NCBI GenBank assembly: GCA_029782095.1
Contig: JAKOVL010000223.1
Span: 34,637 to 58,636 of the forward strand
Direction: 5' to 3'
DNA from: Bacillota bacterium
Lineage (GTDB): Bacteria; Bacillota; Dethiobacteria; DTU022
Length of the DNA: 24,000 bases
Shown here one piece after another: positions 1 to 23,357 of this stretch (the first letter of the stretch is position 1; each line of letters begins with the position of its first letter). The notes under the pieces are model-generated. The model was not told the origin of the DNA and searched no databases. It worked only from the letters and a program-made list of their open reading frames with translations. Both the position numbers and the translations under genes were made by a program.

Positions 1-1060
1 CTTTCCCGGCTAAGGCGAAAACCTTGGTGCCTTTGCTCTCTGCCGTGCCCATGGCGCTGAAGGCATCGGCTCCCTGGTGCAGGATGCGGGGCACGTTGGC
101 TAAAGTCTCCACGTTGTTGATGGAGGTAGGGCAGCCGAAAAGCCCTTTCTGGGCCGGGAAGGGCGGGCGGAAGCGGGGCATGCCCCGCTTGCCTTCGATG
201 GACATGAGCAGCGCCGTCTCTTCCCCGCAGACAAAAGCTCCAGCCCCCTCCCGGATGATAACCTTAAAACTAAAATCAGAGCCGAGAATGCGCTCCCCCA
301 GCAGGCCGCGCTCTTCTGCCTGGCGCAAGGCCAGTTTCAGCCTGCGGATGGCCAGGGGATACTCGGCCCGGATATAGACGTAGCCTACCGAGGCGCCGAT
401 GGCGTAACCGGCGATGAGCATACCTTCAAGAACGCTGTGCGTATCACCCTCGAGGATGCTGCGGTCCATGAACGCCCCCGGATCGCCCTCATCGGCGTTG
501 CACACGATATACTTTTGCTCTCCCGGCGCCTCGCGGGTGAAGCGCCATTTTAAATGAGTGGGGAACCCTGCGCCGCCGCGGCCGCGCAGGCCGGAGCGTT
601 CAATTTCGGCGATTACCTCCTGCGGCGTCATGGTGGTTAAGGCCTTGCGCAGCCCTTCGTAGCCGCCTGCGGCCATGTAGCTGTCTATATCTTCAGGGTC
701 AATATGACCGCAGTTTTTTAAAAGGATGCGATGCTGTTTTTCCAGGAAGGAGCGATCGTCGGCCTCAGCCCCCTCACCCAAAATGAGCAAATCCTTTACG
801 GGCCGGCCTTGCCGGAGATGCTCTTCCACGATCCGCCGGGCAGCGGCGGGATCCACCTTGCCGTAAAGATAGCTCCTGCCGCCCTCTTCGATTACCTCCA
901 CCAGGGGCTCAATATAACACATGCCGATACAGCCCGTCCGCTCTAGGGGCACCCCCGTATCTTTAAGCTCTTCCTGCAGCGCATCGTACACTTTAGCCGC
1001 CCCGCTGGCGATGCCGCAGGTGGCCAGCCCAACTTTAACGCGGTAGTTCTGCTCAGGCAC
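1..1060 (-). CDS. NuoF-like NADH-binding flavoprotein subunit (HydB/HndC-type, with an N-terminal thioredoxin-like 2Fe-2S domain). Partial: the C-terminus runs off the left edge of the window.
   Basis: My translation of the minus strand is open from 1060 to position 1. It reads VPEQNYRVKVGLATCGIASGA...GCIGMCYIEP (2Fe-2S thioredoxin-like), then GLRGRGGAGFPTHLKW, IVCNADEGDPGAFMDR and GAGAFVCGEETALL (NuoF FMN/NADH motifs). The GTG at 1060 follows a GGGGAGGGTG SD by 5 nt and overlaps the upstream stop (GTGCCTGA). It is absent from the ORF track because it is edge-truncated. Confidence 0.85.
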   Translation of the reverse strand, partial: MPEQNYRVKVGLATCGIASGAAKVYDALQEELKDTGVPLERTGCIGMCYIEPLVEVIEEGGRSYLYGKVDPAAARRIVEEHLRQGRPVKDLLILGEGAEADDRSFLEKQHRILLKNCGHIDPEDIDSYMAAGGYEGLRKALTTMTPQEVIAEIERSGLRGRGGAGFPTHLKWRFTREAPGEQKYIVCNADEGDPGAFMDRSILEGDTHSVLEGMLIAGYAIGASVGYVYIRAEYPLAIRRLKLALRQAEERGLLGERILGSDFSFKVIIREGAGAFVCGEETALLMSIEGKRGMPRFRPPFPAQKGLFGCPTSINNVETLANVPRILHQGADAFSAMGTAESKGTKVFALAGK

Positions 1061-1598
1061 CGGCGCACCCTCCCCTGCCTTCTTCTTTTTGTGCTGACTG
1101 CTTGCGGGTCGCCTTGATAATTTTTTTCACTTTATCCGGCGTGAGGCGCCCAAATGTTTCGTCATTGATCGTAATCACCGGGGCCAGGCTGCAGCAGCCC
1201 AGGCAGGCCACCTTTTCCAGGGTGAACTTGCCGTCAGGGCTGGTCCGCCCGGCGGGCGCCTTCGTTTCAAGCTGCAGCGACTCCGTGATCTTCTCCGCGC
1301 CGGCCAAATGGCAGGCGGTGCCGTGGCAGACCTGGATCAGGTTTTCTCCGATGGGCTCGAGGCGGAACTGGGCATAAAATGTGGCAATGCTGTACAGTTC
1401 GCCCACCGGGAGACCCGAAAAATCCGCCGCCCGCTGCAGCATCTCCGGTGAGATATAGCCGAAAGCATTCTGAATATCCTGCAAAATGGGAATAGCGGCG
1501 CCCTTTTGGGCACTGTGGCGCCGCACAATCTCGTTAAGGGCGAAGAGAGGCTGTTCCCTGGCCAACTTTTTTAAATCTTTCTGCCTTTCTCCTTCCAA
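1053..1598 (-). CDS. NuoE-like 2Fe-2S ferredoxin subunit (HydC/HndA type, 24-kDa subunit family)
   Basis: 181-aa ORF with IPILQDIQNAFGYI, VCHGTACHLAG and ACLGCCSLAP cysteine motifs typical of NuoE. TTG start, with an AAAGGAG SD 10 nt upstream. Translationally coupled to the NuoF-like gene. Confidence 0.85.
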   Translation of the reverse strand: MEGERQKDLKKLAREQPLFALNEIVRRHSAQKGAAIPILQDIQNAFGYISPEMLQRAADFSGLPVGELYSIATFYAQFRLEPIGENLIQVCHGTACHLAGAEKITESLQLETKAPAGRTSPDGKFTLEKVACLGCCSLAPVITINDETFGRLTPDKVKKIIKATRKQSAQKEEGRGGCAGA

Positions 1599-1660
1599 GA
1601 GGCATCAGCTCCTTTAAATCTCAAATCCCTGTCCTCCTGTCTCAACTTCCCGCACCATTG

Positions 1661-1929
1661 CTCTCCCCTGCCAGGGGCTCTTAGAAGTTAGAGGTTAGAG
1701 GTCGGAGGTTAGAATAAAAACCTTCTTCTGGCTTTTGGCTTCCCTCAATCCGTCCAAAATCTGGCTTTCCGGTTGTTCCCCCTCCCCTGGTGGGAGAGGG
1801 CTGGGGAGAGGGGGAAAATTCCAAAGCAGGGCGATCCCTAAAACGATCACCCCCTCCTCGACCCTCCCCGTCAAGGGGGAGGAGTTTTTAACCCCAGTTC
1901 CCGGCATTTCTTCTGGTTCCTGGATTCTA
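1661..1929 (-). repeat. Composite mosaic repeat, copy L1, in minus orientation. Modules read on the minus strand: H heptads 1929-1906, B nested palindrome 1884-1778, short C 1770-1725, A heptads 1713-1681, degenerate D hairpin 1680-1661.
   Basis: The reverse complement of 1681-1713 is TCTAACCTCCGACCTCTAACCTCTAACTTCTAA, matching the A modules at 10944, 19286 and 23297. The reverse complement of 1778-1884 aligns arm for arm with the B modules at 19321, 21102 and 23078. No ORF with a protein signature is present. Confidence 0.8.
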
Positions 1930-2027
1930 TTTCCCGAAACCAGTACATAACCTGCTTCTCTGCTACTCCTGTTTTCTAAAAGTATAACATTCTTGACCCA
2001 AAACAAAATCCCTTTTCTAGTGAAATT

Positions 2028-2984
2028 TTAAACGCACCCGGCTCGGGATCTCATTTTTCGCGCGGCCTGAACGGCGATGCCCACGGCATTGTCGGCGGAA
2101 AACGGCGCGGCGGCGAAGGCAATTTTCAAATCCGGCAGGGTTTGCGAAAGCGCTGTTTGCAGGCGCTCCCGGATATAGTTGTTGGCCGCCACCCCGCCCA
2201 CTACCAGGATCGCCTGGTAAGGCCCTGACCTGGAGGCATGGCTTAGCGCTTTGGCCAGCGAATCGGCAATACAGCGCTCCACGGCCCGGGCCAGCTCCGC
2301 GCTGGGGCAGCCTTTGGCCAGCAAGCGCTGGGCCTGGCTTTCCGGCCCGGAGAAGCTGATCTGCGCCCCTTTGACCGCCACCGGCAGGATGATGCTGCCA
2401 TCCGTTACTCCCTGGGCCAAACGCTCCAGCTGCGGGCCCGCCGGAAACGGCAGCCCCATGGCCACACCCACGCGGTCGACAAATTGTCCTGCATGCAAAT
2501 CGGTGCTGCCTCCCAGCTGCCGGATTGCCAGCGTTCCCGGGGGCGACTCCTCCACTGAGAGGATCTCGGTGGTGCCGCCGGAAAGGTGGGCCACCAGGAA
2601 GCGTCCAGGCGGCAGCCCGGCGGACCAGAGCCCCGCGATTAAATGGCCTTCCTGGTGCGACGAGGGCAAAAAAATAAGGCCCATTGTCTGCGCCGCAAAG
2701 AGGCCGAAAGCCTCGCTCACCTTAAATACAGGCATGTACGATCCTTCTACCGGGCGGGGGCGGGTTGCAGCCGCCACCGCTTCCAGGGAAGCGTTTTTCA
2801 GCTGTGCGGCCCCTTCAGCCCAGAGGCGGGGCAGGTTTTGCAGGTGGGCAAACACCGCCTCCGACTGGCGCAGTCCCAGGGCGCCTTCCTTGACGGGCAA
2901 GAGCAGCCTTTTTTCCCAGACCAGGCGCTCCTCCTGGTCCACCAGGGCTGCAGCAGTGGTGTAGGCTGACGTATCCAGTCCCAA
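2028..2984 (-). CDS. Kae1/TsaD-family (peptidase M22, ASKHA fold) protein; divergent TsaD paralog
   Basis: Motifs: GLDTSAYTTAAALVD (N-terminal ASKHA phosphate loop), SHQEGHLIAG (compare TsaD HMEGH), VVGGVAANNYIRERL and FSADNAVGIA. I place the start at TTG 2984, 9 nt after a GAAAGG SD and just after the nusB stop. The 3107 start in the ORF track would overlap nusB by 110 nt. Confidence 0.6.
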   Translation of the reverse strand: MGLDTSAYTTAAALVDQEERLVWEKRLLLPVKEGALGLRQSEAVFAHLQNLPRLWAEGAAQLKNASLEAVAAATRPRPVEGSYMPVFKVSEAFGLFAAQTMGLIFLPSSHQEGHLIAGLWSAGLPPGRFLVAHLSGGTTEILSVEESPPGTLAIRQLGGSTDLHAGQFVDRVGVAMGLPFPAGPQLERLAQGVTDGSIILPVAVKGAQISFSGPESQAQRLLAKGCPSAELARAVERCIADSLAKALSHASRSGPYQAILVVGGVAANNYIRERLQTALSQTLPDLKIAFAAAPFSADNAVGIAVQAARKMRSRAGCV

Positions 2985-2997
2985 AAAGAGGCGCCTT

Positions 2998-3414
2998 TCA
3001 ACTTTCCCGGCCAAGGGCTTCGCCCACCACCCGATCCAGCAGGCCGTTGATGAAGGCAACGGACTCCGCGGTACTGCCATATTTTGTGGCCAGTTCCAGC
3101 GCTTCATTTATGGAAACAGCCACCGGGATATCGGGCCGGTGTAAAATTTCAAACAAAGCCAGGCGTAATAGGTTCCTGTCCACCGCGGAGATGCGCTTCA
3201 GTTCCCAGTTAACCAGGTGTTTTTCAATGATCTCGTCAATGGCCTGCTTATGCTCGAGGGTGCCGTAAACCAGTTCATTGATAAACTGCATCTGCTCCGG
3301 GGTGAAGCTGTAACCTTCCGCGGCGTAATTGAGGGCCGGCCGGGGATGAGCATTCCCCACATCCACCTGAAATAAGGCCCGGAAAGCCACATCACGGGCA
3401 AGGCGACGGGACAT
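2998..3414 (-). CDS. nusB: Transcription antitermination factor NusB
   Basis: SRRLARDVAFRALFQVDV...NWELKRISAVDRNLLRLALFEIL...INEALELAK-like sequence is typical NusB. The ATG at 3414 has a GGGGGT SD 7 nt upstream. The alternative ATG is at 3429. Confidence 0.9.
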   Translation of the reverse strand: MSRRLARDVAFRALFQVDVGNAHPRPALNYAAEGYSFTPEQMQFINELVYGTLEHKQAIDEIIEKHLVNWELKRISAVDRNLLRLALFEILHRPDIPVAVSINEALELATKYGSTAESVAFINGLLDRVVGEALGRES

Positions 3415-3488
3415 TTGTACTACCCCCATACGTTAGTTGGATTTAGTAGTGCGGTTCTTATTCTCACTCAATACCTTTCTAGGGAACA

Positions 3489-3516
3489 CAGAATTCAGAA
3501 TCCAGAATACAGAATA
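3489..3516 (+). repeat. Perfect 7-nt tandem repeat, (N)CAGAAT x4, followed by an A8 run; H-type heptad module
   Basis: CAGAAT occurs at 3489, 3496, 3503 and 3510, an exact period of 7. It is preceded by TAGGGAAC, the same lead-in as the C/H modules (TAAGGGAACTAGAAGCCAGGA at 23201). Confidence 0.85.
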
Positions 3517-3528
3517 AAAAAAACATGT

Positions 3529-3974
3529 TTACTTTAGTGAAAGGCTTATTTTTGTTGCATAGGATTCCAAGAGTTTGCTCGTTTCTTCGAGCTTTAACAT
3601 CATATCTGTCGTGCTGCCGTAATGTAAATCGCCGGCTAAGATAAGATAATAGCGGCATTCTTCAGGGAACCCTGGGCTATGTTCAGGTAGTGTATTTTTT
3701 CTGCTTTACTTTTTTTCTTGAAACCTTCCGCTATATTGGCGGGGACGGAGACCGCTGCTCTGCGAAATTGAGCAGTCAAACAAAACTCTTCATTCCTGGG
3801 AAAACCACTGGTATACTGGTAAACATCCAAAACAATCGGTGTGCTTTTTGCCAGACTACCAGATCCTGAAAACTTTTTGCCGACCTGTTCATTTTCCTCA
3901 TTTCCCGCAAGCTGCAAAATTTCAAATCCGCTTTTTATCTTTTGTTCTGAATTCTGGGTTCCCTTAATCGGCAA
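3529..3974 (-). pseudogene. Four-helix-bundle protein gene (23S rRNA intervening-sequence protein family, PF05635-like) with a frameshift
   Basis: Frame 1 reads ...FPRNEEFCLTAQFRRAAVSVPANIAEGFKKKSKAEKIHYLNIAQGSL, then stops at 3636. A shift of one base at about 3662-3665 continues as EECRYYLILAGDLHYGSTTDMMLKLEETSKLLESYATKI, ending at TAA 3529-3531. That is the expected C-terminal helix of this family. A sequencing error cannot be excluded. Confidence 0.7.
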
Positions 3975-4029
3975 AACTTCACATAAGCATATACTGCGCT
4001 ATAATGGCATAACTTATCATCCATACGTC

Positions 4030-4260
4030 CTACAGTTCATCCTTATGGCCGAAGATCTTTTCCAGCCACTGGCGCAGGCCTTTGTTCGCGTCCAGGCGCC
4101 AGCCGATAAAGATGCCGACAGCCACACAAAAGTAGATGAACACCGCCCACCAAAATGATTTCAAGGTGATCACCAGGATCGCAAAAATCAGGCCGAGCAG
4201 CCCGCCCAGCAGCTTTCCCCAATGCTTGCTCATTAGGGTCCACCAGTTCAGTTCGGTCAC
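4030..4260 (-). CDS. DUF2273 small integral membrane protein
   Basis: 76 aa with two TM helices (WGKLLGGLLGLIFAILVI...AVFIYFCVAVGIFIGW). It lies downstream of asp23/amaP, as is usual in Firmicutes. GTG start. Confidence 0.75.
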   Translation of the reverse strand: MTELNWWTLMSKHWGKLLGGLLGLIFAILVITLKSFWWAVFIYFCVAVGIFIGWRLDANKGLRQWLEKIFGHKDEL

Positions 4261-4273
4261 GGCGCTCTCCCCC

Positions 4274-4825
4274 CTAGTTGGGCCGAATTTTCTTGGAAGG
4301 CACCTGGTCCAGGATAATATTTTCCACCAATACTCTTACTTCGTGGACCACGAGTCCCGTAATTTGCTCCAGGTAGCCTTTCACTTTTTCCTGCAGCTCG
4401 GATACCAGGCCGGGCAGTTCCAGGTCGGGCATTACTTTGATCTTAACCTGAACGACCAGTCCTTCGGGGGTTGGATAGACGCGGCGACCGCCGTCTTTAA
4501 CCCCCTGAATCTGCTGAACCACCCTTAAAACCATATTTTCCATGGCCACAATGGTGATGCGGATTTCACCCAGCGCGCTGGTTTGCAGAACCGAATCGGG
4601 GACAGGCTTCCCGGTGCTGCGCAAACCCAGAGACAACAGGATTACAGCGACCAGCAGCAGTCCGCCTCCCACAACAGCCGCAACCGGATCACCGGCCAGC
4701 GCGAATAAGCTTGTCCTCAGGCCTGGCTCTTGCACCAGGCCAAAAACAAGGGCCAGCGCCAGCAGCCCTGCTGCGGCAAGCAATAATCCCAACAAGACAA
4801 GGAACAGCCTTGCTGCGCTGCTCAT
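4274..4825 (-). CDS. amaP: Alkaline shock response membrane anchor protein AmaP
   Basis: N-terminal double TM segment followed by GEIRITIVAMENMVLRVVQQIQGVKD. It sits immediately downstream of the Asp23-family gene. Confidence 0.7.
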   Translation of the reverse strand: MSSAARLFLVLLGLLLAAAGLLALALVFGLVQEPGLRTSLFALAGDPVAAVVGGGLLLVAVILLSLGLRSTGKPVPDSVLQTSALGEIRITIVAMENMVLRVVQQIQGVKDGGRRVYPTPEGLVVQVKIKVMPDLELPGLVSELQEKVKGYLEQITGLVVHEVRVLVENIILDQVPSKKIRPN

Positions 4826-4848
4826 GTTTGAGAGAACCCTCCTTCAGG

Positions 4849-5265
4849 TTATTTTAACTCTCTGGCGGGGGCGCTCTCCTCTGCTTCCTTGTCTGTGTCG
4901 TCTTTGGGGAAACTGACCCCCTGCACGTGGACGTTTACCTGCAGCACCCGCAGCCCGGTCATCGTCTCCACCGCTTTTTTGACATTCTCTTGTATTTCCC
5001 AGGCAACATCGGGAATACGCACCCCGTACTTAATCACGATAAATATATCTATCTTGGTTTCTTCCGTGCCCACCTCTACCTTGACGCCCTTGGACAGGTT
5101 GCGCCGCCCCAGGACTTCGGCGATACCGCCGGCAATCCCGCCGCTCATGGCAGCTACTCCCTCTACTTCCATCGCCGCCAGTCCGGCGATGGTTGAGACC
5201 ACGTCATCGGCAATGCGAATGGTTCCAATATCCGAAGGCAACGCCCGTCCTGTTTCCGACATCAT
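4849..5265 (-). CDS. Asp23/Gls24-family envelope stress protein
   Basis: IRIADDVVSTIAGLAAMEVEGVAAMSGG...VKVEVGTEETKIDIFIVIKYGVRIPDVAWEIQENVKKAVETMTGL is the Asp23 (DUF322) signature. GGAGG SD lies 7 nt upstream. Confidence 0.9.
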   Translation of the reverse strand: MMSETGRALPSDIGTIRIADDVVSTIAGLAAMEVEGVAAMSGGIAGGIAEVLGRRNLSKGVKVEVGTEETKIDIFIVIKYGVRIPDVAWEIQENVKKAVETMTGLRVLQVNVHVQGVSFPKDDTDKEAEESAPARELK

Positions 5266-5360
5266 GAAAAAACCTCCTCTTGGATTGATCTCTTAAGCAT
5301 AACTCCGCAAACCGCTGCCAGGGTAAGCTTAAACCCCTGTAAACACAATATTTATGCTTT

Positions 5361-5389
5361 ATTATACCAAAGTGTGGCATCCAGTTCAA
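5361..5389 (-). promoter_or_regulatory. Sigma-A-type promoter for the asp23-amaP-DUF2273-(nusB) unit
   Basis: The minus strand reads TTGAAC (5389-5384), a 17-nt spacer, then TGgTATAAT (-10 at 5366-5361 with an extended TG). It lies about 95 nt upstream of the asp23 ATG. Confidence 0.6.
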
Positions 5390-5408
5390 TTTGGCATTTT
5401 GCCGCCTT

Positions 5409-5939
5409 CTAATAACGGGAGATAACCTGGATCTCTTCTTTGTCCACGCCGGCTACCCCGGCCACTGTTTCAGTAATCTGAACAAATTCCCTTTCGCTTA
5501 GCTCCTGCTTTTTTACCATGACTGTGGCGATGCGGTTGCGGTAAAAAAAGATGGCATCCTCGTAACCCTGCGCTTTGATCATATTCTCGATGAGCAGTTC
5601 CTGCTCCATCAGCTTGACCAGCTCAATAAGCATATTTTCCGCTTCTTCCTTGGCTGCTGCGCTGGCATTGGGATTGTTAATGATATCTTCCAGCATCTCC
5701 ATCTCCTGGGCCCTAACCCGGTCACGCTGCAGGCGGTATTCGATAAAGAAAGCTCCGCCTTCATCGTAGCCCCAATCACCGTCCTCGGCCATGCCCGTGA
5801 GGACTTCCTGCAGCTCGTCGTCTAAAAGCACATCATAACTGGTCTGCCGCTCCCGCTCCAGCCCGCTGATAACCCAGGCGGTGACCCCGGCAAGCAGCAG
5901 CAGCAAGGCAATCCACAGCGTTTTCTTGGACCGCTTCAC
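5409..5939 (-). CDS. spoIIIAH: Stage III sporulation protein AH
   Basis: N-terminal TM segment, FFIEYRLQRDRVRAQEMEMLEDIINNPNAS..AKEEAE coiled region, C-terminal YscJ/FliF-like fold region, and last position in the spoIIIA operon. The GTG at 5939 has a GGGAG SD 9 nt upstream. The ORF-track start at 5948 abuts the SD. Confidence 0.85.
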   Translation of the reverse strand: MKRSKKTLWIALLLLLAGVTAWVISGLERERQTSYDVLLDDELQEVLTGMAEDGDWGYDEGGAFFIEYRLQRDRVRAQEMEMLEDIINNPNASAAAKEEAENMLIELVKLMEQELLIENMIKAQGYEDAIFFYRNRIATVMVKKQELSEREFVQITETVAGVAGVDKEEIQVISRY

Positions 5940-6016
5940 CCTAACCACTCCCTTCTTGATTTAAGAATTGCTCCAAGGCCTGCGCCATGAGGCACAAAGC
6001 AGGATCCCCGGCGCGT

Positions 6017-6607
6017 CTAATTCCCCCGGGGCAGAACGGTAATGCGGTGGTACGGCAGGTTCAGAACAGCCCGCAGCGCTTCCACCACGCTGGCTCTAAC
6101 CGCCGGATCTTCCACCCCGTCGGCCACTACCAGCACGCCGCGATAGCGGGGCTGGTTTTCGCGCACCACCAGGGGGACCTCCCTACCCTGAGCGTCACGG
6201 AGGATCACATGGGTCAGCCGTGATGTATCTTCGATAATCTCCCGCGTTCCGCCCCCGCTGTCCTGCTCGACGGTCTGCCGCCGCGTCTGCTCCCGGTCAT
6301 AGGCCAGCTCCGCCCTCCCGGAATCTTCCAGGGTAAGGCGCACCGCCGCATTATTGACGCCTCGGATCTGGTTCAACAGCGCCGCCAGCTCCTGCTCCTG
6401 TACATCGGGCGGCACAACTTCCATTGCCGGAGGTGCGGCATGTTCCATGGGAGCAGCCCTGTCATTACTGCAGCTTAAATACGAATTAAAGGTAATCAAA
6501 GCAACCCCCAGGAGGAGCAAAAGCAACAACCTGGAGTTGTATTTTGAGCCGGCGCCGCCTTCGCCGGGCGACATAAACATTTTTTTCAGCCGCTCCAGAA
6601 AGCTCAC
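6017..6607 (-). CDS. spoIIIAG: Stage III sporulation protein AG
   Basis: C-terminal PRYRGVLVVADGVEDPAVRASVVEALRAVLNLPYHRITVLPRG is the SpoIIIAG signature. It has an N-terminal TM segment and a GTG start with a GGGGG SD. Confidence 0.9.
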   Translation of the reverse strand: MSFLERLKKMFMSPGEGGAGSKYNSRLLLLLLLGVALITFNSYLSCSNDRAAPMEHAAPPAMEVVPPDVQEQELAALLNQIRGVNNAAVRLTLEDSGRAELAYDREQTRRQTVEQDSGGGTREIIEDTSRLTHVILRDAQGREVPLVVRENQPRYRGVLVVADGVEDPAVRASVVEALRAVLNLPYHRITVLPRGN

Positions 6608-6680
6608 TTAAGATTCCCCCTTCACCTGACGCTACAAACCGCCGGCTGCCTGGCCCGGCACGCCGCAACAGCGGCGGCAT

Positions 6681-7289
6681 TTACTTTACCGTAACGCAGA
6701 CAATATCCGGCGAAACCTGGAAGCGCCGGGCCAGCTTTTGCTCCAGCACTTCCACCCGTACCTGTTTGCTAACTTCCGGCGCCTCTGTCCGCTCTGCTGC
6801 ACCGCCGGATGCGGTAATCGAAGCGATATCCACCGGCTCCACCGCGCCCCAGGCACCGCCGGCCGCCTGCACCTGCAGCTCCATGCCGTATATGGATCCG
6901 TAATTTTCCACATCCGGATTTTCCTCCAAAATAAAGCGGGCTGACACCAGCTGCCACTGCCCATCCGCTTCCACTTCTTCCCGGGCCAGCTGCTGCAGCG
7001 CTTCGCGATAAAGGGAGAGGGTCTGATCCCGGCTAACCCGGATGAGATCACTTTGCTGAAAGACCGCCAGGTCCGGAAGCGGACCCTGCTGCGGCAGCAG
7101 TGCAGCCACCGAAGGGCCCCGCCCCAGTAGCCCGGCCATAGCATTCACCACCAGCAAAATTACCACCAGGCCGGTAATGAGCCGGATGTAACGGTGATAC
7201 TGCCCCCGGGGCAGCAGCATCTCCAGCAGCACGTTTACAAACAGGATTACCAGCAGGTTCCGGGTAAGCTCGCCCAGCAAGGATACCAT
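6681..7289 (-). CDS. spoIIIAF: Stage III sporulation protein AF
   Basis: N-terminus LTRNLLVILFVNVLLEMLLPRGQYHRYIRLITGLVVILLVVN (two TM segments) is typical SpoIIIAF, and the operon position fits. Confidence 0.85.
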   Translation of the reverse strand: MVSLLGELTRNLLVILFVNVLLEMLLPRGQYHRYIRLITGLVVILLVVNAMAGLLGRGPSVAALLPQQGPLPDLAVFQQSDLIRVSRDQTLSLYREALQQLAREEVEADGQWQLVSARFILEENPDVENYGSIYGMELQVQAAGGAWGAVEPVDIASITASGGAAERTEAPEVSKQVRVEVLEQKLARRFQVSPDIVCVTVK

Positions 7290-7317
7290 GCTTCCACCCC
7301 AGATTTAATTATTCGCC

Positions 7318-8502
7318 TCAGCGGAACATCACCGTGGCGTTGCCAGCACCCACCACCACCGTCACCGCCAGGATAAACAGCACGGCCGCACAGGCCAGAA
7401 CGCCAAAAATCATGACCAGGCTGCTGCCCATGGTGTTGATGGCATCACCGAGGCTGCCCTCTCCCAGAGGCTGTACCAGGGCAGCGCTAAGCTTAAAGAC
7501 GATGGCCATGGCCGCCAACTTGAGCAGGGGAAAAAACGCCAGCAGCAGCAGGACTACCGTTCCGGCAAGGAATATTCCGTTTTTTAGCATGAGTGATGCT
7601 CCGGCCACCGTTTCCACAGAATCGGCCAGCAGCTTTCCCACCACCGGGATAAAAACACCGGTCATATACTTGGCCGTGCGCAGGCTGACGGCGTCGCTGA
7701 CGCTGCCCGCAGCCCCATGGAGGGCCACGATACCCATAAAGATGGTCATGAACAAGCCGATGCCCCAGGTGCTTAAATCCCGAAAAAAATCGGATAGCTT
7801 TCCCACTTTAAAATGCGGCGAAAAGTGGTTGGCCAGCCCCAGTACAGTGCTTAAAAAAATCAGGGGAAAAATCGCTCCCCGGATGGCTGTGCTGAAAAAG
7901 TTAATGCCGAAAACAACCAGGGGATGGAGCATGGCCGAAGAGGCGAGGCTTCCCTGGGCTGCCAGCAGCGCTGCCAGGGTCGGCAGCATGGCCAGGGTGA
8001 AATCAACCATATTGTTAATGGCGCTGCCGGCCACACCCACGGCAGCCCTAAAGGTGTAAAGGCAAATACCCACCAGAACGATAAAGATTATGCCGCGGGT
8101 CAGCGCTGCCACCTGCTCCCGTTCAAATGCGGTCTCCAGGTTTTTCAAAAAGGCGGCGGCCACTGCCAGAAGCAGCAGCTGCCCCATTAATTTCAGGTTG
8201 AGCAGCACTTCGCCGGCGAGAAAACGGCCCATGCCGCTTAGCAGCGCCCCCAGATCCAGCGCCGCTTCCCCCTCCCGCAGCCGCTCCAGGAAGTCGCGCC
8301 AGTGCAGGCCCGGCAGATATTCATTGATCTCCTGTTCCAGTTCGGACCAGTAGCGGTCGAAATAGGTGAAGTCCAGCTCCTCTTCCAGCTCCCGTACCAG
8401 GGGATCCGGCGCTGCCTCTGCCTTTAGCGGCAGCAGGCAGAGCAGCAGTACAACTGCGGCCAAAACCGGCATCTTTTTGAAAAAGCCCGCCTGCTCCGTC
8501 AT
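7318..8502 (-). CDS. spoIIIAE: Stage III sporulation protein AE (polytopic membrane protein)
   Basis: 394 aa with a signal-like N-terminus and many TM helices. Operon position between AD and AF. Confidence 0.85.
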   Translation of the reverse strand: MTEQAGFFKKMPVLAAVVLLLCLLPLKAEAAPDPLVRELEEELDFTYFDRYWSELEQEINEYLPGLHWRDFLERLREGEAALDLGALLSGMGRFLAGEVLLNLKLMGQLLLLAVAAAFLKNLETAFEREQVAALTRGIIFIVLVGICLYTFRAAVGVAGSAINNMVDFTLAMLPTLAALLAAQGSLASSAMLHPLVVFGINFFSTAIRGAIFPLIFLSTVLGLANHFSPHFKVGKLSDFFRDLSTWGIGLFMTIFMGIVALHGAAGSVSDAVSLRTAKYMTGVFIPVVGKLLADSVETVAGASLMLKNGIFLAGTVVLLLLAFFPLLKLAAMAIVFKLSAALVQPLGEGSLGDAINTMGSSLVMIFGVLACAAVLFILAVTVVVGAGNATVMFR

Positions 8503-8530
8503 GTTTTAAAACCCCGCCTGTTATCTCTAT

Positions 8531-8917
8531 TTATGGAATTAAAGCCATAATGTTTTCCATTACTTCCACCACCACCGGCACCGCCATAACCAGGATGATC
8601 ACTTTGGCCGCCAGCTCAATGCGCGAAGCGATGCTGCCCTCTCCGGCGTCGCGGCAAACCTGGGAACCGAATTCAGCCAGGTAGGCGATGCCGATAACCC
8701 TTAGCAGTGTTTGCAGGTAGACCAGGTTTACCCCCGCACCCACTGCTGTTTCCGTTATAACCTGGACCACGCCCGCAACATGACGGATCACCAGCAGCAT
8801 GATGATGACACCGGCTACCAGGGATACCTGCATGGCCATCTCGGGCCGGTACTCCCGTAAAATGATTACCAGAACAGCAGCAATCAGGCCCAGGCCCACA
8901 ACCTGCACTATCTCCAT
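8531..8917 (-). CDS. spoIIIAD: Stage III sporulation protein AD
   Basis: 128-aa membrane protein, MEIVQVVGLGLIAAVLVIILREYRPE..., comparable to B. subtilis SpoIIIAD (IVQIAGLGLV...). Confidence 0.85.
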   Translation of the reverse strand: MEIVQVVGLGLIAAVLVIILREYRPEMAMQVSLVAGVIIMLLVIRHVAGVVQVITETAVGAGVNLVYLQTLLRVIGIAYLAEFGSQVCRDAGEGSIASRIELAAKVIILVMAVPVVVEVMENIMALIP

Positions 8918-8963
8918 CTGCTCGAAACATCTCCGTGATAATTTGACGTTTGCACTCAGCCGT

Positions 8964-9007
8964 AAAAAAGCGGACCTCCTTATGGAAGGCAGCAGGCCGC
9001 TTTTTTT
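8964..9007 (-). terminator. Terminator-shaped hairpin (A-tract, stem, U-tract) between spoIIIAC and spoIIIAD; contains an orphan SD
   Basis: Directly after the spoIIIAC TGA the minus strand reads AAAAAAA GCGG CCTGCTGC CTTCC ATAA GGAGG T CCGC TTTTTT. This gives an outer GCGG/CCGC stem extendable by A:U pairs and an inner CUUCC/GGAGG stem. The symmetry means the plus strand folds likewise. Confidence 0.35.
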
Positions 9008-9213
9008 CAGAAAAGGTTGAAGATAGTCTTTATGCTGTTGAACAGATCGTTGATCAGCTGCAGGACCATCAATAAGACGATCACCACCCCCACCAGGGTC
9101 AGCATCTGGGCCTGCTCCTGTTTATCCGCCTGCTTCAGCACAATATTTAAAACGGAAATAAAAATACCGATGCCGGCAATTTTAAACAGCAGATCAATAT
9201 TGAATCCGTTCAA
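9007..9213 (-). CDS. spoIIIAC: Stage III sporulation protein AC
   Basis: 68-aa protein with two TM segments: IDLLFKIAGIGIFISVLNIVLKQADKQEQAQMLTLVGVVIVLLMV. TTG start with a GGGGGGA SD 7 nt upstream. Confidence 0.85.
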   Translation of the reverse strand: MNGFNIDLLFKIAGIGIFISVLNIVLKQADKQEQAQMLTLVGVVIVLLMVLQLINDLFNSIKTIFNLF

Positions 9214-9231
9214 CTTTTATTCCCCCCGCTT

Positions 9232-9762
9232 TTATAACAAAAGAATAACCAGGGCCGCCCCGCCGATGAATCCAAGATAACGCCACAGCCGGGCGTGGCG
9301 TTCCCGGTCTTCCCGCGCCTTGGCCAGGGTAAAAGATAAGTGCTGCTCCACCAGGCGGATTTGCTTGAGTTGACCTTCCCGCTCGCTCACGCCCAGGAAA
9401 TCCCCCAGGCTGCGGATGGTTTCCCGGTCCAGCGCGGAAAAACAGCTTTGCGGGTAAATCCGACTCAGCGACTGCTCCCAGGCTTTCCCGGCGCTCCATT
9501 CCGGGTGTGCCTTCAGGAGCTCCGCTGCATTTAAATATAGTTCGCGCACCGGCGCAGCGCACTGGCGGCCCACATTGGTAAAAGCGGCCGGCAGCAGCGA
9601 CCGGGCAAAAGAGATCTCGGTAGTGAGAAGCTTTAGCGAGTGCTGAAACTGCTCCAGCTGCTGCACCCGCTTTTCCAGGATACGGGCCCTGTTTTCGCCA
9701 AATGCCGCTGCAGCGGCCATAATGCAGGCGGCGCCGGCTGTTTTCAGAGCCAGTTCAAACAT
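9232..9762 (-). CDS. spoIIIAB: Stage III sporulation protein AB
   Basis: MFELALKTAGAACIMAAAAAFG..RVQQLEQFQHSLKLLTTEISF parallels the B. subtilis SpoIIIAB N-terminus. The ATG at 9762 has a GGGGG SD 6 nt upstream and overlaps the spoIIIAA stop (ATGTTTGA). The ORF-track start at 9801 is less likely. Confidence 0.8.
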   Translation of the reverse strand: MFELALKTAGAACIMAAAAAFGENRARILEKRVQQLEQFQHSLKLLTTEISFARSLLPAAFTNVGRQCAAPVRELYLNAAELLKAHPEWSAGKAWEQSLSRIYPQSCFSALDRETIRSLGDFLGVSEREGQLKQIRLVEQHLSFTLAKAREDRERHARLWRYLGFIGGAALVILLL

Positions 9763-10744
9763 CGCTGCCCCCATAAACGACTTTGCCGCTGCGCGGATCA
9801 ATGATCCGCTCCACCGTGCCGGGGCCGCGGCTGCGCCCTAAAAATAAAACCCGCTCAAAGATATGCATCTGCATCAACCGGCGCAGCCCCGGCCTGGCGC
9901 GCAACTCTTCGAGGGTGCCGGCGTGAACGGTGGCTATAACCGCTACCCCGGCATGGATTACCTCTTCCATGGCCCGGACATCTTCCTCCAGGCCGATCTC
10001 GTCGGTAACAATGACCTGGGGCCCCATGGACCGCAGCAGCATCATCATCCCTTCAGCCTTGGGACAGGCGTCCAGAACATCGGTGCAGTGGCCCACATTG
10101 AGCTGGGGCTCACCCTGAAAAGAGCCGGCCAGCTCCGAGCGCTCATCCACCATCCCCACTTTGAACCCGCTGAAGCCCAGCTCGGGCACACCGTCGCTGA
10201 TCAGGCGCGCCAGGTCGCGCAAAAAAGTTGTCTTCCCGCAGCGGGGCGGGGAAATGATCAGGGAGTGCCTGACCCTCCGGCGGCGGTAGTCAATAAAATA
10301 ACGGACATAGGGCAGCGCCGCCCCGTTAATCTCCCGGGCGATGCGATAATTCAAGCCGGTAATGTGCTTAAGCCGCGCCACCCGGCCCTGCTCCAGTACC
10401 GCCTGGCCGCACAGGCCGACGCGGTGCCCTCCGGGGATGGTGATGTAGCCGCAGCGCAGCTCCTGCTCAAAGGCGTAAAGCGAAGCGCTGCTGATCAGGT
10501 GCAAGGCCTGTTCCAGGTCTTCCCGCCCGGGGCGGTAAGCCTCTGCCGCGGCGACGGCCGCCCCCCTGCTGTCCAAAAAAAGATCGCCCTGCCGCCCGTG
10601 CAGCGCCAGGGGCCGTCCCAAGCGCAGCCTGATCTCCTCCAGGCTTTCCCACAGGCAGACGGGGTGGCGATCAATGATTTCACCTATGTTCCGGGGCACG
10701 TAAGAGATGATCTGATCCCGAATCGAAACAGCCAGATCTTGCAT
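9755..10744 (-). CDS. spoIIIAA: Stage III sporulation protein AA (secretion-type AAA+ ATPase)
   Basis: Walker A PPRCGKTTFLRDLARL and Walker B-like VIVTDEIG. It is the first gene of the operon. Confidence 0.9.
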   Translation of the reverse strand: MQDLAVSIRDQIISYVPRNIGEIIDRHPVCLWESLEEIRLRLGRPLALHGRQGDLFLDSRGAAVAAAEAYRPGREDLEQALHLISSASLYAFEQELRCGYITIPGGHRVGLCGQAVLEQGRVARLKHITGLNYRIAREINGAALPYVRYFIDYRRRRVRHSLIISPPRCGKTTFLRDLARLISDGVPELGFSGFKVGMVDERSELAGSFQGEPQLNVGHCTDVLDACPKAEGMMMLLRSMGPQVIVTDEIGLEEDVRAMEEVIHAGVAVIATVHAGTLEELRARPGLRRLMQMHIFERVLFLGRSRGPGTVERIIDPRSGKVVYGGSDV

Positions 10745-10801
10745 GCAGCGCTAATGCCTCCGCTTCTGGCCGGATGCTTGTTTCCCGACCCGTAGTAGTA
10801 A

Positions 10802-10830
10802 TGTATATGTGTAGGTGCAGGGCGATATTA
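10802..10830 (-). promoter_or_regulatory. Candidate sigma-E-type (mother-cell) promoter of the spoIIIA operon
   Basis: The minus strand reads TAATATC (10830-10824), 14 nt, then CATATACA (10809-10802). The B. subtilis sigma-E consensus, as I recall it, is ZHATAXX-N14-CATACAHT, which makes the -10 a 6/8 match. It lies about 58 nt upstream of the spoIIIAA ATG. spoIIIA is sigma-E dependent in B. subtilis. Confidence 0.4.
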
Positions 10831-10873
10831 TGAATCTTTTTAGGAACCAGAGTTTTTAGCGCAAGTAAACGTT

Positions 10874-11004
10874 GAAGGGAATCCTGAATTCAGAAGGGTC
10901 GAAAAGTTTTAGAAGCGGGATAAGCAGTAAAGGGAGTTTTTATCTAACCTCCAACCTCTCACCTCTAACTTCTAAATTCGACCCTCTCCCGCCGGGAGAG
11001 AGGG
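10874..11004 (+). repeat. Composite mosaic repeat, copy L2, in plus orientation and antisense to both flanking genes. Modules: H/C-like 10874-10931, SD-like GGGAGTT plus T-run 10932-10941, A 10944-10975, D hairpin 10982-11004.
   Basis: CTAACCTCCAACCTCTCACCTCTAACTTCTAA differs at one base from the copy at 23297. It is followed by CGACCCTCTCCC-GCC-GGGAGAGAGGG. There is no B module. Confidence 0.8.
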
Positions 11005-11079: not shown

Positions 11080-11116
11080 GCTTAATATTGTAATGGTTAT
11101 GTACGTTGGCGGGCTA

Positions 11117-19153: not shown

Positions 19154-19194
19154 GTGGCAGGTGACAGGAGAGGCTGGGAAACTGGCCTTGTGCA

Positions 19195-19405
19195 GGCTAA
19201 GGGAACTCATAAGCCAGGAGATGGTTTTAAGACGGGATAAACGGCACTGATAACTACAGAAGATAAAGGTAAGGAGGTTTTTAATCTAACTTCCAACCTC
19301 TTACCTCTAACTTCTAAGAGCCCCCGGTGGGGGAGGGCTAGGGTGGGGGGGATCTAAAGCCCAAACGCCCCCTCTCCCCCCCCCTCTCCCACCAGGGGAG
19401 AGAGA
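19195..19405 (+). repeat. Composite mosaic repeat, copy L3. Modules: C 19195-19270, orphan SD plus T-run 19271-19282, A 19286-19317, B (5'-truncated, ending in the D hairpin) 19321-19404.
   Basis: By eye, 19195-19317 is about four-fifths identical to 23197-23328. 19321-19404 aligns with 21102-21191 and 23078-23165. Confidence 0.85.
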
Positions 19406-21086: not shown

Positions 21087-21101
21087 CAGCAGGCAGTAAT
21101 C

Positions 21102-21301
21102 CCTTCCCCCCTGGTGGGGGAGGGCCAGGGTGGGGGGGATCTAAAGCCCAAACACCCCCTCTCCCCACCCCTCTCCCACCAGGGGAGAGGGAAAATAATG
21201 CGGAAATCCAGGCTTGGGCGCTCTAAAGGAAACTAGAAGTCAGAAACCAGAAGAAAAGATGAAAGAGGTTGTGACGGTGTACCCCCTTTTGAAAAGGGGG
21301 G
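21102..21301 (+). repeat. Composite mosaic repeat, copy L4. Modules: B 21102-21191, C/H-like heptads 21221-21257 (CTAGAAG TCAGAAA CCAGAAG), then a separate palindrome ACCCCCTTTTGAAAAGGGGGGT at 21281-21302.
   Basis: The B module is more than 90% identical by eye to the copies at 19321 and 23078. The heptads have an exact period of 7. Confidence 0.8.
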
Positions 21302-23015: not shown

Positions 23016-23357
23016 AAGCCAGAAGCCGGAATACGGAAACCAGAGGTAAGCAGTTTAAAGTCGGGGATCCGAAAGTCCCCTCCCCCCTGGTGGGGGAGGG
23101 TTAGGGTGGGGGGGATCATGCCCAAACGCCCCCTCTCCCCGACCCTCTCCCACCAGGGGAGAGGGAGAATAAAGCGGGCAAAGCCAACCTTTATGCGGCT
23201 TAAGGGAACTAGAAGCCAGGAAAAGGTTTTTAAGATGAGATAAACAGCGCCGACAACTATAGATGGCAGAAGCAAAGGAATAAGGAGGTTTTTTTTCTAA
23301 CCTCCAACCTCTTACCTCTAACTTCTAAAATCGACCCTCTCCCACCAGGGGAGAGGG
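23016..23357 (+). repeat. Composite mosaic repeat, copy L5, with the full architecture. Modules: H 23016-23050, B 23078-23165, C 23197-23281, orphan SD plus T-run 23282-23296, A 23297-23328, D 23335-23357.
   Basis: Every module recurs elsewhere in the window (see the other repeat features). P1 CCCTCCCCC/GGGGGAGGG, P2 CCCTCTCCC/GGGAGAGGG and the D hairpin are each perfect 9-bp palindromic stems. Confidence 0.85.

What the first reader, a model, noticed from the sequence alone, without database searches (positions are those of the whole stretch)
1599..2027. The same composite occurs inverted in the leader of the NuoE/NuoF-like operon, so element orientation tracks the downstream gene
Read on the minus strand, 1929 to 1661 gives H-B-C(short)-A-D. 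That is the same order as the pilO copy, and it ends 62 nt before the NuoE-like start at 1598.

All four B-containing copies are co-oriented with the gene that follows. Distances to the next start codon are:
- L1: 62 nt.
- L3: 30-70 nt.
- L4: about 140 nt.
- L5: 28 nt.

A possible extended -10 (TGtTATACT, minus strand, 1989-1981) lies upstream of the element. If used, the whole composite would be in the 5' UTR.

The short C in L1 looks like a deletion between the two GGTTTTT direct repeats present in the long C. Co-orientation plus placement before start codons is what a transcribed cis-acting RNA element would show. It is not what a neutral DNA repeat would show.
Basis: partly seen in the sequence, partly recalled or inferred. 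Interest (0 to 1): 0.68.

Follow-up and report, generated by a model that had tools for sequence, protein, structure and literature searches.

The report
Mosaic BoxC-type intergenic repeat, not a leader RNA
The sequence in front of the NuoE-like gene is one copy of a recently expanded mosaic intergenic repeat whose core is the already known pan-bacterial BoxC/triplex-motif inverted pair, and it shows no sign of being a conserved regulatory RNA.

Summary
Read on the minus strand, 1929-1660 carries the same modules in the same order as the pilO copy (23017-23357). It has a 56-nt deletion in C. Its "D" is really a truncated left arm of B.

**Module identities**
- B is an inverted pair of the known BoxC/PIT/"TM" triplex-G4 motif. 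It aligns end to end with E. coli and deltaproteobacterial copies.
- A is a 7-nt × 4.7 tandem array, a type found in many unrelated metagenomes.
- Only the ~150-nt H-C-A unit is lineage-specific.

**The composites are insertions**
- The orthologous nuoE leader in a relative with 90% identical NuoE lacks B, A and D.
- The pil junctions are 0-96 nt in relatives.
- An 81% relative lacks L4 entirely, and at L3 it differs by a 58-nt B/D indel.

**Orientation**
- In the window, 4 of 4 B copies follow the gene (p = 0.125).
- Of three further composites, one is antisense and two sit between convergent genes.
- Across phyla neither the TM motif (20:25) nor the heptamer array (29:25) shows a bias.
- There is no Rfam hit, no covariation and no unusually stable fold.

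**Verdict.** This is a DNA-level mosaic repeat that is transcribed passively. Any sense bias most likely reflects which insertions are tolerated. It is a new variant of a known kind, of modest interest.

The parts
1981..1989 (-). Extended -10-like site TGTTATACT, upstream of the composite.
   Evidence: Read. Conserved as TGATATACT in L247/L248 (NuoE 90% identical), inside an ~85-nt conserved block. The sigma-70 scan, which needs a -35 match, did not flag it.
1905..1929 (-). H: short heptamer-like run (ATCCAGG AACCAGA AGAAATG), related to the NCAGAAN arrays.
   Evidence: Inverted match 1907-1935 / 21228-21256, 83%. Alignment.
1848..1884 (-). Left arm of B: BoxC/TM motif in sense, CCTCCCC-CTTGAC-GGGGAGG-GTCGA-GGAGGGG.
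   Evidence: Sequence. Aligns with the E. coli and deltaproteobacterial left arms.
1815..1847 (-). Spacer of B: 33 nt here, 13-16 nt in L3-L5.
1778..1814 (-). Right arm of B: reverse complement of a TM motif, CCCCCTCTCCCC-AG-CCCTCTCCC-ACCAG-GGGAGGGGG.
   Evidence: (I4, I6, I7). With the left arm it folds into a long hairpin, -63.7 kcal/mol, z = -2.97.
1727..1777 (-). Short C: 5' part of the H-C-A unit, with a 56-nt deletion between the two GGTTTTT repeats.
   Evidence: Alignment. nhmmer hit to model positions 2-56.
1681..1726 (-). Imperfect GAAGGTT/AACCTCC hairpin (one A-C mismatch) followed by A, the heptamer array (TCTAACC-type, 7 nt x 4.7, 1681-1713).
   Evidence: TRF. I2 and I5..
1660..1680 (-). 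"D" of L1: truncated left arm of B (GAGCCCCTGGCAGGGGAGAGC).
   Evidence: Aligns with GAGCCCC(C/T)GG(T/C)GGGGGAGGG, which follows A in L3 and L233.
1596..1615 (-). SD AAAGGAG (1615-1609) and TTG start (1598-1596) of the NuoE-like gene.
   Evidence: Conserved in L247 and L249. ORF 1053-1598. PF01257.
10868..11004 (+). L2: partial H-C-A unit plus a single TM hairpin, antisense to the flanking genes. It lies between a hairpin after the Zn-ribbon gene and the conserved spoIIIAA upstream region.
   Evidence: Absent in L247.
19174..19405 (+). L3: H-C-A unit (19174-19317) followed directly by B (19321-19405), in a pil operon junction.
   Evidence: The 81% relative L252 has H-C-A plus a single hairpin and lacks 58 nt.
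21101..21256 (+). L4: B (21101-21192) plus an H-type run (21226-21256), upstream of pilM.
   Evidence: The whole insertion is absent in L252.
23017..23357 (+). L5: H, then B (23078-23165), the H-C-A unit (23176-23328) and the D hairpin (23335-23357), between pilN and pilO.
   Evidence: pilN and pilO overlap or lie 18 nt apart in relatives. B folds at -76.2 kcal/mol, z = -6.0.

Best explanation
**What it is.** Region 1660-1929 is one copy of a mosaic extragenic repeat that expanded recently in this uncultured spore-forming Firmicute. It has three kinds of building block:
- An inverted pair of the pan-bacterial BoxC / PIT / G-C-rich triplex motif (module B). Single or truncated arms of the same motif make up the "D" modules.
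- A lineage-specific unit of about 150 nt, H-C-A.
- The heptanucleotide tandem array in which that unit ends (module A).

**How it behaves.** The repeat works at the DNA level, as a selfish or recombination-prone sequence.
- Copies appear as insertions in intergenic spacers, including junctions between cistrons.
- They are reshuffled by small indels at the hairpins and between short direct repeats.

**Effect on expression (inferred).**
- Copies inside transcription units are transcribed passively and give very stable GC-rich RNA hairpins.
- They are not an operon-specific regulator.
- The co-orientation with genes seen in this window is best read as chance plus a tolerance filter. Terminator-like hairpin-plus-T-tract sites are found only on the antisense strand of the composites, so antisense insertions inside operons would be polar and would be lost.

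**Status of the steps.** Shown: the identity of B, the insertion/absence polymorphism, and the lack of conservation, covariation and general orientation bias. Inferred: the way the repeat spreads and the filter.
For: **B is BoxC/TM**
- The 19-mer CCCTCTCCCACCAGGGGAG hit at least 120 genome stretches from many phyla, against about 4 expected by chance. 97 of 127 hits carry the third C-block just upstream.
- The TM_ECO table in PMC4666352 shows the same three-block motif and inverted pairs.
- The window's B matches 5359 of 5426 E. coli genomes, with a median of 16 places per genome and nothing annotated under the listed best matches.
- It aligns end to end with an E. coli flgG-flgH copy and a deltaproteobacterial copy.

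**A is a generic heptamer array**
- TRF reports 7 nt x 4.7 copies.
- The A pattern hit at least 120 metagenome stretches. Nearly all are plain (CCTCTAA/CTTCTAA)n arrays.

**The copies are insertions**
- The L1 modules are absent from the 244-250-nt leaders of L247/L248 and L249.
- The L2 modules are absent in L247.
- pil junctions are 0-96 nt in L253 and L255.
- L4 is absent and L3 differs by a 58-nt indel in L252.
- There are 7 TM hairpins in the 24-kb window and none in about 100 kb from the more distant relatives L247, L249, L250, L253 and L255; the closer relative L252 has one, at L3.
- Short-read contigs of the same species break at the repeats.

**No RNA signature**
-.

**No general orientation bias**
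-.
- The E. coli literature agrees.

**Counter-examples**
- L2, L165, L231 and L233.

**Terminator-like sites**
- They occur only on the antisense strand of the composites.
Against: - In the window all four B copies follow the gene, across a switch of gene strand and against the replication strand.
- Counting eight composites against the transcript most likely to cover them gives 6 sense and 2 antisense. Both antisense copies sit just behind strong hairpins. This pattern could also mean that the RNA has a function.
- My gene caller for the cross-phylum counts is crude. On the window it missed 3 of about 30 genes and put 1 on the wrong strand, so a weak bias would be diluted.
- No target-site duplication and no transposase were found, so the way the repeat spreads is unknown.
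- The terminator-like sites are few (4) and weak. Their total number is not above the shuffle expectation.
Confidence: 0.6

Rival explanations
1. The composite is a transcribed cis-acting RNA element in 5' UTRs and between cistrons. Its hairpins set mRNA processing or stability, for example RNase III cleavage at the ~40-bp B stem or a protective hairpin upstream of the next cistron. Orientation is therefore selected.
For: - 4 of 4 B copies are sense in the window. 6 of 8 composites are sense relative to the covering transcript.
- Orientation follows the genes, not the replication strand.
- L1 lies downstream of a conserved extended -10-like site.
- B and D fold into very stable hairpins.
Against: - Absent from the orthologous leader at 90% protein identity and from the pil junctions of relatives.
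- No covariation, no excess fold stability on the sense strand and no Rfam family.
- L165 and L2 are antisense. L231 and L233 are not followed by a start codon.
- BoxC/PIT showed no promoter or terminator activity and no orientation bias in E. coli (PMC4666352).
- A B hairpin forms in either orientation, so B by itself would not impose one.
Confidence: 0.17
2. The elements act through non-B DNA structure (intrastrand triplex, G-quadruplex or cruciform). They would affect replication, recombination or nucleoid organisation, and their position between genes is what matters.
For: - Each B arm has the three-block triplex layout and four G-tracts.
- The TM oligonucleotide forms a stable triplex in vitro, and TM loci are hot spots of small rearrangements in E. 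coli (PMC4666352).
- A G4/hairpin switch has been proposed for the same motif (PMC5100583).
- Here, indels map to the hairpins: the 58-nt B/D indel and the 56-nt deletion in C.
Against: - Double-stranded TM showed no triplex signal, and in vivo footprinting gave no evidence of triplex formation.
- Instability is equally a by-product of a selfish repeat.
- This view does not explain the H-C-A unit or any orientation relative to genes.
Confidence: 0.13
3. The composite is a MITE-like non-autonomous transposon. The two inverted TM arms are its terminal inverted repeats, H-C-A is the cargo, and B is the empty minimal element.
For: - L231 has left TM arm, H-C-A, right TM arm.
- B is the same two arms with a 13-33-nt spacer.
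- Presence/absence polymorphism at orthologous sites.
- Burst-like abundance in one lineage only.
Against: - No target-site duplication could be recognised at the L4 filled/empty pair.
- Most copies are not bounded by two arms. H-C-A occurs with one arm on either side.
- No transposase is known. BoxC was not found associated with mobile elements in E. coli.
Confidence: 0.1

Closest known systems
BoxC / PIT element / G-C-rich intrastrand triplex motif TM_ECO (Bachellier 1990s as cited; Hoyne and Maher 2000; Holder et al. 2015, PMC4666352), also described as a G-quadruplex-hairpin-duplex switch (Kaplan et al. 2016, PMC5100583)
   Same: - Same three-block sequence: CCCTCTCCC, loop, GGGAGAGGG, a 2-4-nt loop, then a G-rich mirror block.
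- Same inverted-pair layout with a short spacer.
- Strictly intergenic.
- Small indels at the motif.
- Aligns end to end with E. coli copies.
   Different: - Found here in a Firmicute, where it is joined to a lineage-specific H-C-A unit and a heptamer array to form larger composites.
- The third block reads GGGTGGGGG or GGGGAGAGG rather than GGGTGAGGG.
- Three copies sit inside one pilus operon.
BIMEs (REP/PU mosaics) of enterobacteria and BOX elements of Streptococcus pneumoniae
   Same: Extragenic mosaics built from a few short modules in variable combinations. They are palindromic, often co-transcribed, and variable between relatives. This comparison rests on my own knowledge.
   Different: No sequence relationship. 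No GTAG-type REP head. An association with a RAYT transposase was not examined.
Intergenic heptamer direct repeats (TAACTGA repeats of Beggiatoaceae, cyanobacteria and Bacteroidetes, PMC4679880; cyanobacterial STRR)
   Same: - Module A and the H runs are tandem arrays with a 7-nt period in intergenic DNA.
- The same kind of array turns up in unrelated lineages.
   Different: - Different unit (TCTAACC/CCTCTAA).
- Not placed directly at start codons.
- No orientation bias in my sample (29:25).

Membership tests
BoxC / PIT / TM triplex motif | Three consecutive blocks: a pyrimidine block, its purine complement, and a second purine block in mirror symmetry, separated by short loops. | tested here: met
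   - L5 left arm: CCCTCCCCC-CTGGT-GGGGGAGGG-TTA-GGGTGGGGG.
- L1 left arm: CCTCCCC-CTTGAC-GGGGAGG-GTCGA-GGAGGGG.
- Right arms are the reverse complement of CCCTCTCCC-CTGGT-GGGAGAGGG-NN-GGGGAGAGG.

BoxC / PIT / TM triplex motif | Sequence similarity to the E. coli consensus. | tested here: met
   blastn against E. coli genomes found 5359 of 5426 genomes with matches. The best match covers 85-93% of B at 70-78% identity, E = 2e-11. Alignment. Table 1 of PMC4666352.
BoxC / PIT / TM triplex motif | Intergenic location; frequent inverted pairs on opposite strands. | tested here: met
   All window copies lie between called genes. Four inverted pairs with 13-33-nt spacers.
BoxC / PIT / TM triplex motif | Forms an intrastrand triplex or G-quadruplex as an oligonucleotide. 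| not testable with these tools
   Needs CD or NMR. Only RNA and DNA hairpin folding could be computed.
cis-regulatory leader RNA (riboswitch, attenuator and similar) | Conserved at the orthologous leader in related species. | tested here: not met
   L247/L248 (NuoE 90% identical) and L249 (76%) lack B, A and D in leaders of 244-250 nt.
cis-regulatory leader RNA (riboswitch, attenuator and similar) | Secondary structure supported by covariation, or a match to a curated family. | tested here: not met
   RNAalifold covariation term +2.44, with compensatory changes at 2 of 30 pairs. Sense fold z = -0.46. No Rfam hit at the gathering threshold, and only chance-level miRNA-like hits below it.
MITE | Terminal inverted repeats bounding the element. 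| tested here: inconclusive
   L231 has TM arms on both sides of H-C-A. Most other copies have one arm, or a complete B on one side.
MITE | Target-site duplication at filled versus empty sites. | tested here: inconclusive
   The L4 filled site (window) was compared with the empty site (L252). The junctions have diverged and no duplication is visible.
MITE | A cognate transposase in the genome. | not tested
   No complete genome of the source organism was available.
REP / BIME / REPIN | An imperfect palindrome of about 35 nt with a conserved 5' GTAG-type head, associated with RAYT. | tested here: not met
   The palindromes are present, but no GTAG head is seen in any copy. RAYT was not examined.
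Heptamer direct-repeat arrays (TAACTGA-like) | Tandem array with a 7-nt period in intergenic DNA. | tested here: met
   TRF reports period 7, 4.7 copies, at 1681, 10943, 19285 and 23296, and a second type at 3484-3516.
Heptamer direct-repeat arrays (TAACTGA-like) | Located within a few nucleotides upstream of the start codon, sense-oriented. | tested here: not met
   A ends 82 nt (L1) and 57 nt (L5) before the start codon. L2 is antisense. The metagenome sample gives 29 sense against 25 antisense.

The most novel reading that the evidence does not exclude
The inverted BoxC/TM arms are the ends of a mobile, MITE-like element. That element can carry cargo (the H-C-A unit) and has recently invaded operon junctions in this Firmicute. 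Transcription then filters which orientation survives. If so, this lineage would give the first handle on how the pan-bacterial BoxC/TM family spreads, and would show that in strongly SD- and terminator-dependent bacteria its orientation is not neutral.
Probability: 0.12. Interest if true: 0.6.

Novelty: new variant of a known kind. Interest (0 to 1): 0.33.

Why it matters
BoxC/PIT/TM motifs are among the most widespread short repeats in bacteria, yet their origin, spread and function remain unexplained.

This lineage shows three things:
- The motifs are fused to other modules.
- They were inserted recently, and filled and empty orthologous sites are available for comparison.
- Three copies sit inside one operon.

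That makes it a usable natural system for asking how these repeats move and whether transcription constrains their orientation.

For annotation there are practical consequences:
- Such composites should not be read as leaders or riboswitch candidates.
- They generate spurious ORFs, such as 1695-2006.
- They break short-read assemblies.

Tried and rejected
- **Rfam.** Gathering threshold on the whole window, and E-value threshold on 1500-2100. The only hits were chance-level miRNA-like matches to the long hairpin.
- **Protein-coding reading of ORF 1695-2006 (103 aa).** No Pfam match, and it is made up of the repeat modules. Rejected.
- **Promoter inside H-C-A.** One CCGACA-17-TATAGT match in L165 only, not conserved in other copies. 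Rejected.
- **Conserved RNA structure of H-C-A.** No covariation.
- **Orientation tied to the replication strand.** GC skew stays negative across the gene-strand switch, while L1 and L3-L5 lie on opposite strands. Rejected.
- **More copies of the composite.**
  - The metagenome scan with the A pattern returned mostly unrelated heptamer arrays and only three true composites.
  - An nhmmer model of H-C-A found no copy in about 100 kb from relatives.
  - The weak hit in L227 is an unrelated heptamer hairpin next to 5S-rRNA-like sequence.
- **Target-site duplication at L4.** None recognisable.
- **Terminators upstream of L2 and L165.** The terminator scan did not flag them. The hairpins are real: -40.1 kcal/mol, z = -9.5, for L165, and -23.4 kcal/mol for L2. 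Their T-tracts are only about 4 nt, so calling them terminators is an inference.
- **Tool failure.** The first Pfam call failed on a wrong frame. The gene identities were taken instead.
Full report
**1. Context**

The window comes from an uncultured spore-forming Firmicute.

- The nearest named relatives of its NuoE-like protein are Dethiobacter/Dethiobacteria, at 63-67% identity.
- Genes on the minus strand from 1 to 17580:
  - a NuoF-like and a NuoE-like gene (1053-1598);
  - a TsaD-family gene (2028-3107), then nusB and asp23;
  - spoIIIAH to spoIIIAA, and a Zn-ribbon gene;
  - efp, an M24 peptidase, aroQ and aroK;
  - a pilin, pilB and aroE.
- From 17833 onwards a type IV pilus operon runs on the plus strand: prepilin peptidase, pilins, pilM, pilN, pilO.
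- In relatives, nuoE and nuoF are followed by a 1129-1145-aa protein with ferredoxin, pyridine-nucleotide oxidoreductase and molybdopterin domains. The "NuoE/NuoF-like operon" therefore looks like a soluble formate-dehydrogenase-type module rather than complex I. This last point is an inference.

**2. Observation check**

The repeats are real.

- The repeat finder links 1649-1727 to 19271-19349 (79 nt, 85%), 1681-1735 to 23274-23328 (55 nt, 87%), and 1776-1814 to 21155-21193 (39 nt, 95%).
- Five loci carry modules:
  - L1: 1660-1929, minus strand.
  - L2: 10868-11004, plus strand.
  - L3: 19174-19405, plus strand.
  - L4: 21101-21256, plus strand.
  - L5: 23017-23357, plus strand.
- An eight-sequence alignment puts L1, read on the minus strand, in register with L5 in the order H, B, C, A, terminal hairpin.
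- The quoted distances to start codons and the position of TGTTATACT (1989-1981, minus strand) are correct.
- One correction: "D" in L1 (GAGCCCCTGGCAGGGGAGAGC) is the truncated start of a left arm of B, as found after A in L3 and in L233. It is not the CCCTCTCCCACCAGGGGAGAGGG hairpin of L5.

**3. What the modules are**

*Module B*

- B is an inverted pair of a three-block motif. In L5 the left arm is CCCTCCCCC-CTGGT-GGGGGAGGG-TTA-GGGTGGGGG. The right arm is the reverse complement of CCCTCTCCC-CTGGT-GGGAGAGGG-TC-GGGGAGAGG.
- The hits come from Delta-, Beta- and Gammaproteobacteria, Chloroflexi, Nitrospirae, cyanobacteria, Planctomycetes and others.
- 97 of 127 hits carry the third C-rich block just upstream, and some carry the complete pair.
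- A full-text search for the block sequences led to Holder et al. 2015 (PMC4666352). This is the BoxC repeat of E. coli, rediscovered as the PIT element and then as the G/C-rich triplex motif TM_ECO. According to that paper:
  - E. coli K-12 has 23 copies, always intergenic.
  - The copies show no strand bias.
  - Five of them form inverted pairs.
  - The motif occurs in more than 260 genomes.
  - It has no promoter or terminator activity.
  - It is associated with small local rearrangements.
- Kaplan et al. 2016 (PMC5100583) describe the same motif as a G-quadruplex/hairpin switch.
- Direct tests confirm the identity. The window's B matches 5359 of 5426 complete E. coli genomes, with a median of 16 places per genome and nothing annotated under the listed best matches. 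It aligns end to end with an E. coli copy between flgG and flgH and with a deltaproteobacterial copy.

*Module A*

- A is a tandem array with a 7-nt period and 4.7 copies (unit TCTAACC).
Nearly all hits are plain (CCTCTAA/CTTCTAA/TCTCTAA)n arrays in unrelated organisms, and some form long inverted heptamer hairpins.
- H is a second heptamer-type run (NCAGAAN). It occurs on its own at 3484-3516 and 3945-3970.

*The lineage-specific part*

- Only the ~150-nt stretch from H through C to A is lineage-specific.
- Besides the window, it was found in three metagenome contigs (L165, L231, L233), in the same-species contigs L001-L006, and in the 81% relative L252.
- H-C-A is always next to at least one TM arm:
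  - a right-arm hairpin follows it in L5, L2, L231 and L252;
  - a left arm follows it in L3, L233 and L1;
  - a left arm precedes it in L231 and L165.

**4. The composites are recent insertions, not conserved leaders**

- **L1 site.**
  - In L247/L248 (NuoE 90% identical) the TsaD-nuoE spacer is 244 nt, against 429 nt in the window.
  - The first ~85 nt, including TGNTATACT, and the SD/start region are conserved.
  - B, A and D are absent. Only H-like heptamers occur.
  - L249 (76%) also lacks them.
- **L2 site.** The A-D segment is absent in L247, while the region upstream of spoIIIAA is almost identical.
- **pil junctions.**
  - In L253 and L255 (PilM 57% and 50% identical) the three junctions measure 0-6, 58-96 and 0-18 nt.
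  - In the window they measure 321, 245 and 432 nt.
  - The L5 insertion has separated pilN and pilO, which overlap in L253.
- **L252 (PilM 81% identical).**
  - It lacks the whole L4 insertion.
  - At L3 it has H-C-A followed directly by a single hairpin. The window has 58 nt more there: a left arm, a spacer and a C-block. This indel turns "D" into "B".
- **Density.** A simple hairpin search finds 7 TM hairpins in the 24-kb window and none in about 100 kb from the more distant relatives L247, L249, L250, L253 and L255. L252 has one, at L3.
- **Assemblies.** Short-read contigs of the same species end at these repeats.

**5. Orientation**

- In the window the four B copies follow their genes. 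Two-sided p is 0.125, and three of the four lie in one operon.
- GC skew stays negative across the switch of gene strand, so the pattern follows transcription and not replication.
- Exceptions inside the window:
  - L2 is antisense.
  - The H-type arrays at 3484-3516 (antisense) and 3945-3970 (sense) lie in one run of co-directional genes.
- The three extra composites, with flanking genes checked by Pfam:
  - L165 is antisense, between ileS and a DUF5665/dksA pair.
  - L231 follows a PIN-domain gene in sense and faces a convergent aminotransferase gene.
  - L233 follows pilC in sense and faces a convergent Wzy_C gene.
- "Co-oriented with the gene that follows" therefore holds for 4 of 8 composites.
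- Relative to the transcript most likely to cover each copy, the count is 6 sense and 2 antisense.
- Both antisense copies lie just behind strong hairpins (-40.1 kcal/mol, z = -9.5, in L165; -23.4 kcal/mol in L2). I read these as terminators by eye. The scan tool did not flag them.
- Across phyla I used a simple self-trained ORF caller. On the window it missed 3 genes and put 1 on the wrong strand. With it:
  - the TM 19-mer lies between co-directional genes 20 times in sense and 25 times in antisense (p = 0.55);
  - the heptamer pattern does so 29 and 25 times (p = 0.68).
- Reading the K-12 tables, the inverted pairs there take either orientation relative to tandem genes.

**6. RNA-level tests**

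- No Rfam family reaches its gathering threshold. Relaxed thresholds give only chance-level miRNA-like matches to the long hairpin.
- RNAalifold on six H-C-A copies gives a covariation term of +2.44 and compensatory changes at 2 of 30 pairs. The GGAGGTT/AACCTCC stem decays by mismatches.
- The 382-nt L1 leader folds no better than shuffled sequences on the sense strand (z = -0.46). On the antisense strand z = -1.9.
- B does fold into a hairpin of about 40 bp: -76.2 kcal/mol, z = -6, in L5, and -63.7 kcal/mol in L1. It would do so in either orientation.
- Terminator-like sites (hairpin plus T-tract) appear only on the antisense strand of the composites:
  - 1863-1882, plus strand, in L1;
  - two on the minus strand in L5;
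  - one in L231.
- None is on a sense strand. These sites are few and weak, so they are a lead rather than proof.

**7. Interpretation**

- The best-supported reading is a mosaic extragenic repeat that expanded recently in this lineage. It is built from BoxC/TM arms, a lineage-specific unit and heptamer arrays.
- It is remodelled by indels at hairpins and between short direct repeats, in line with the instability reported for TM loci.
- Copies in operons are transcribed passively.
- The co-orientation seen here is chance, or a filter against antisense insertions that would be polar. It is not evidence for a dedicated cis-acting RNA.
- How the repeat spreads is not known.
  - The arrangement in L231 (arm, cargo, arm) suggests that the arms could act as terminal inverted repeats.
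  - Against that, no target-site duplication or transposase was found.

**8. Novelty and score**

- B is a member of a known family.
- The composite with H-C-A, its burst in a Firmicute and its insertion into pil operon junctions amount to a new variant of a known kind.
- The specific claim of the finding, that orientation tracking implies an RNA element, is not borne out.
- Interest is modest.

Noticed in passing
window 19436-19474 (plus strand); L252 about 2295-2333: The pseudopilin gene listed as 19475-19930 (TTG start) probably starts at a CTG at 19436.
- That start would give a normal prepilin leader (LKLYVNLFYRQDG|LTLIELL) behind an AAGGGAGAG Shine-Dalgarno sequence.
- The CTG and the reading frame are conserved in the 81% relative.
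- There is no ATG, GTG or TTG in frame upstream.
   Followed up: partly
window 1695-2006 (minus strand); L002 11903-12115: A 103-aa ORF spans the repeat modules and has no Pfam match. A 70-aa gene was called at the same place in a public assembly. These repeats generate spurious proteins rich in P, S, G, E and R.
   Followed up: yes
L127-L246 (for example L139, L183, L195, L222): Heptamer arrays of the CCTCTAA/CTTCTAA/TCTCTAA type are widespread in metagenomes from very different habitats. They often form long inverted heptamer hairpins. I found no paper that quotes these units.
   Followed up: partly
L007-L126: Across phyla, the partner hairpin next to the searched TM arm most often has a TTGAT or TTGAC loop (CCCCTCCC-TTGAT-GGGAGGGG). 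L1 of the window has TTGAC. A conserved loop is not what a purely structural motif would be expected to show. The ACCAG loop of the searched arm was fixed by the search pattern itself.
   Followed up: no
L099 about 2860: One TM hit lies inside what reads as an RHS/YD-repeat protein (…YDPFGRRIKKTITPSPTRGEGGVEGGTTLYLY…). This suggests an in-frame TM insertion in a coding sequence.
   Followed up: no
window 22954-23385, compared with L253 11645-11658 and L255 11595-11614: The 432-nt L5 insertion separates pilN and pilO. In relatives these genes overlap or lie 18 nt apart, so any translational coupling has been broken in this species.
   Followed up: partly
window 10745-10865 (minus strand): The ~120 nt upstream of spoIIIAA are almost identical to L247 (90% relative), although the adjacent repeat differs. 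This is probably the sporulation promoter region.
   Followed up: no
L256 (E. coli R32_14_1F, NZ_CP074749.1 3858615-3858713): In this E. coli strain a complete BoxC inverted pair sits between flgG and flgH, inside the flagellar operon. It has the same arm order relative to the genes as the window copies.
   Followed up: partly
window 21281-21301; L252 about 3975-4005: A small C/G hairpin (ACCCCCTTTTGAAAAGGGGGGT; CCCTCCCCTTGAAAAAGGGGG in the relative) lies just before pilM in both species. It directly adjoins the L4 insertion point, so the insertion may have targeted or grown from a pre-existing hairpin.
   Followed up: no
L001 (end at 1-151); P0121 contigs: Short-read (Logan) assemblies of the same species break exactly at these repeats. 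L001 ends inside L3, and contigs carrying the identical PilM are at most 2.5 kb long.
   Followed up: yes
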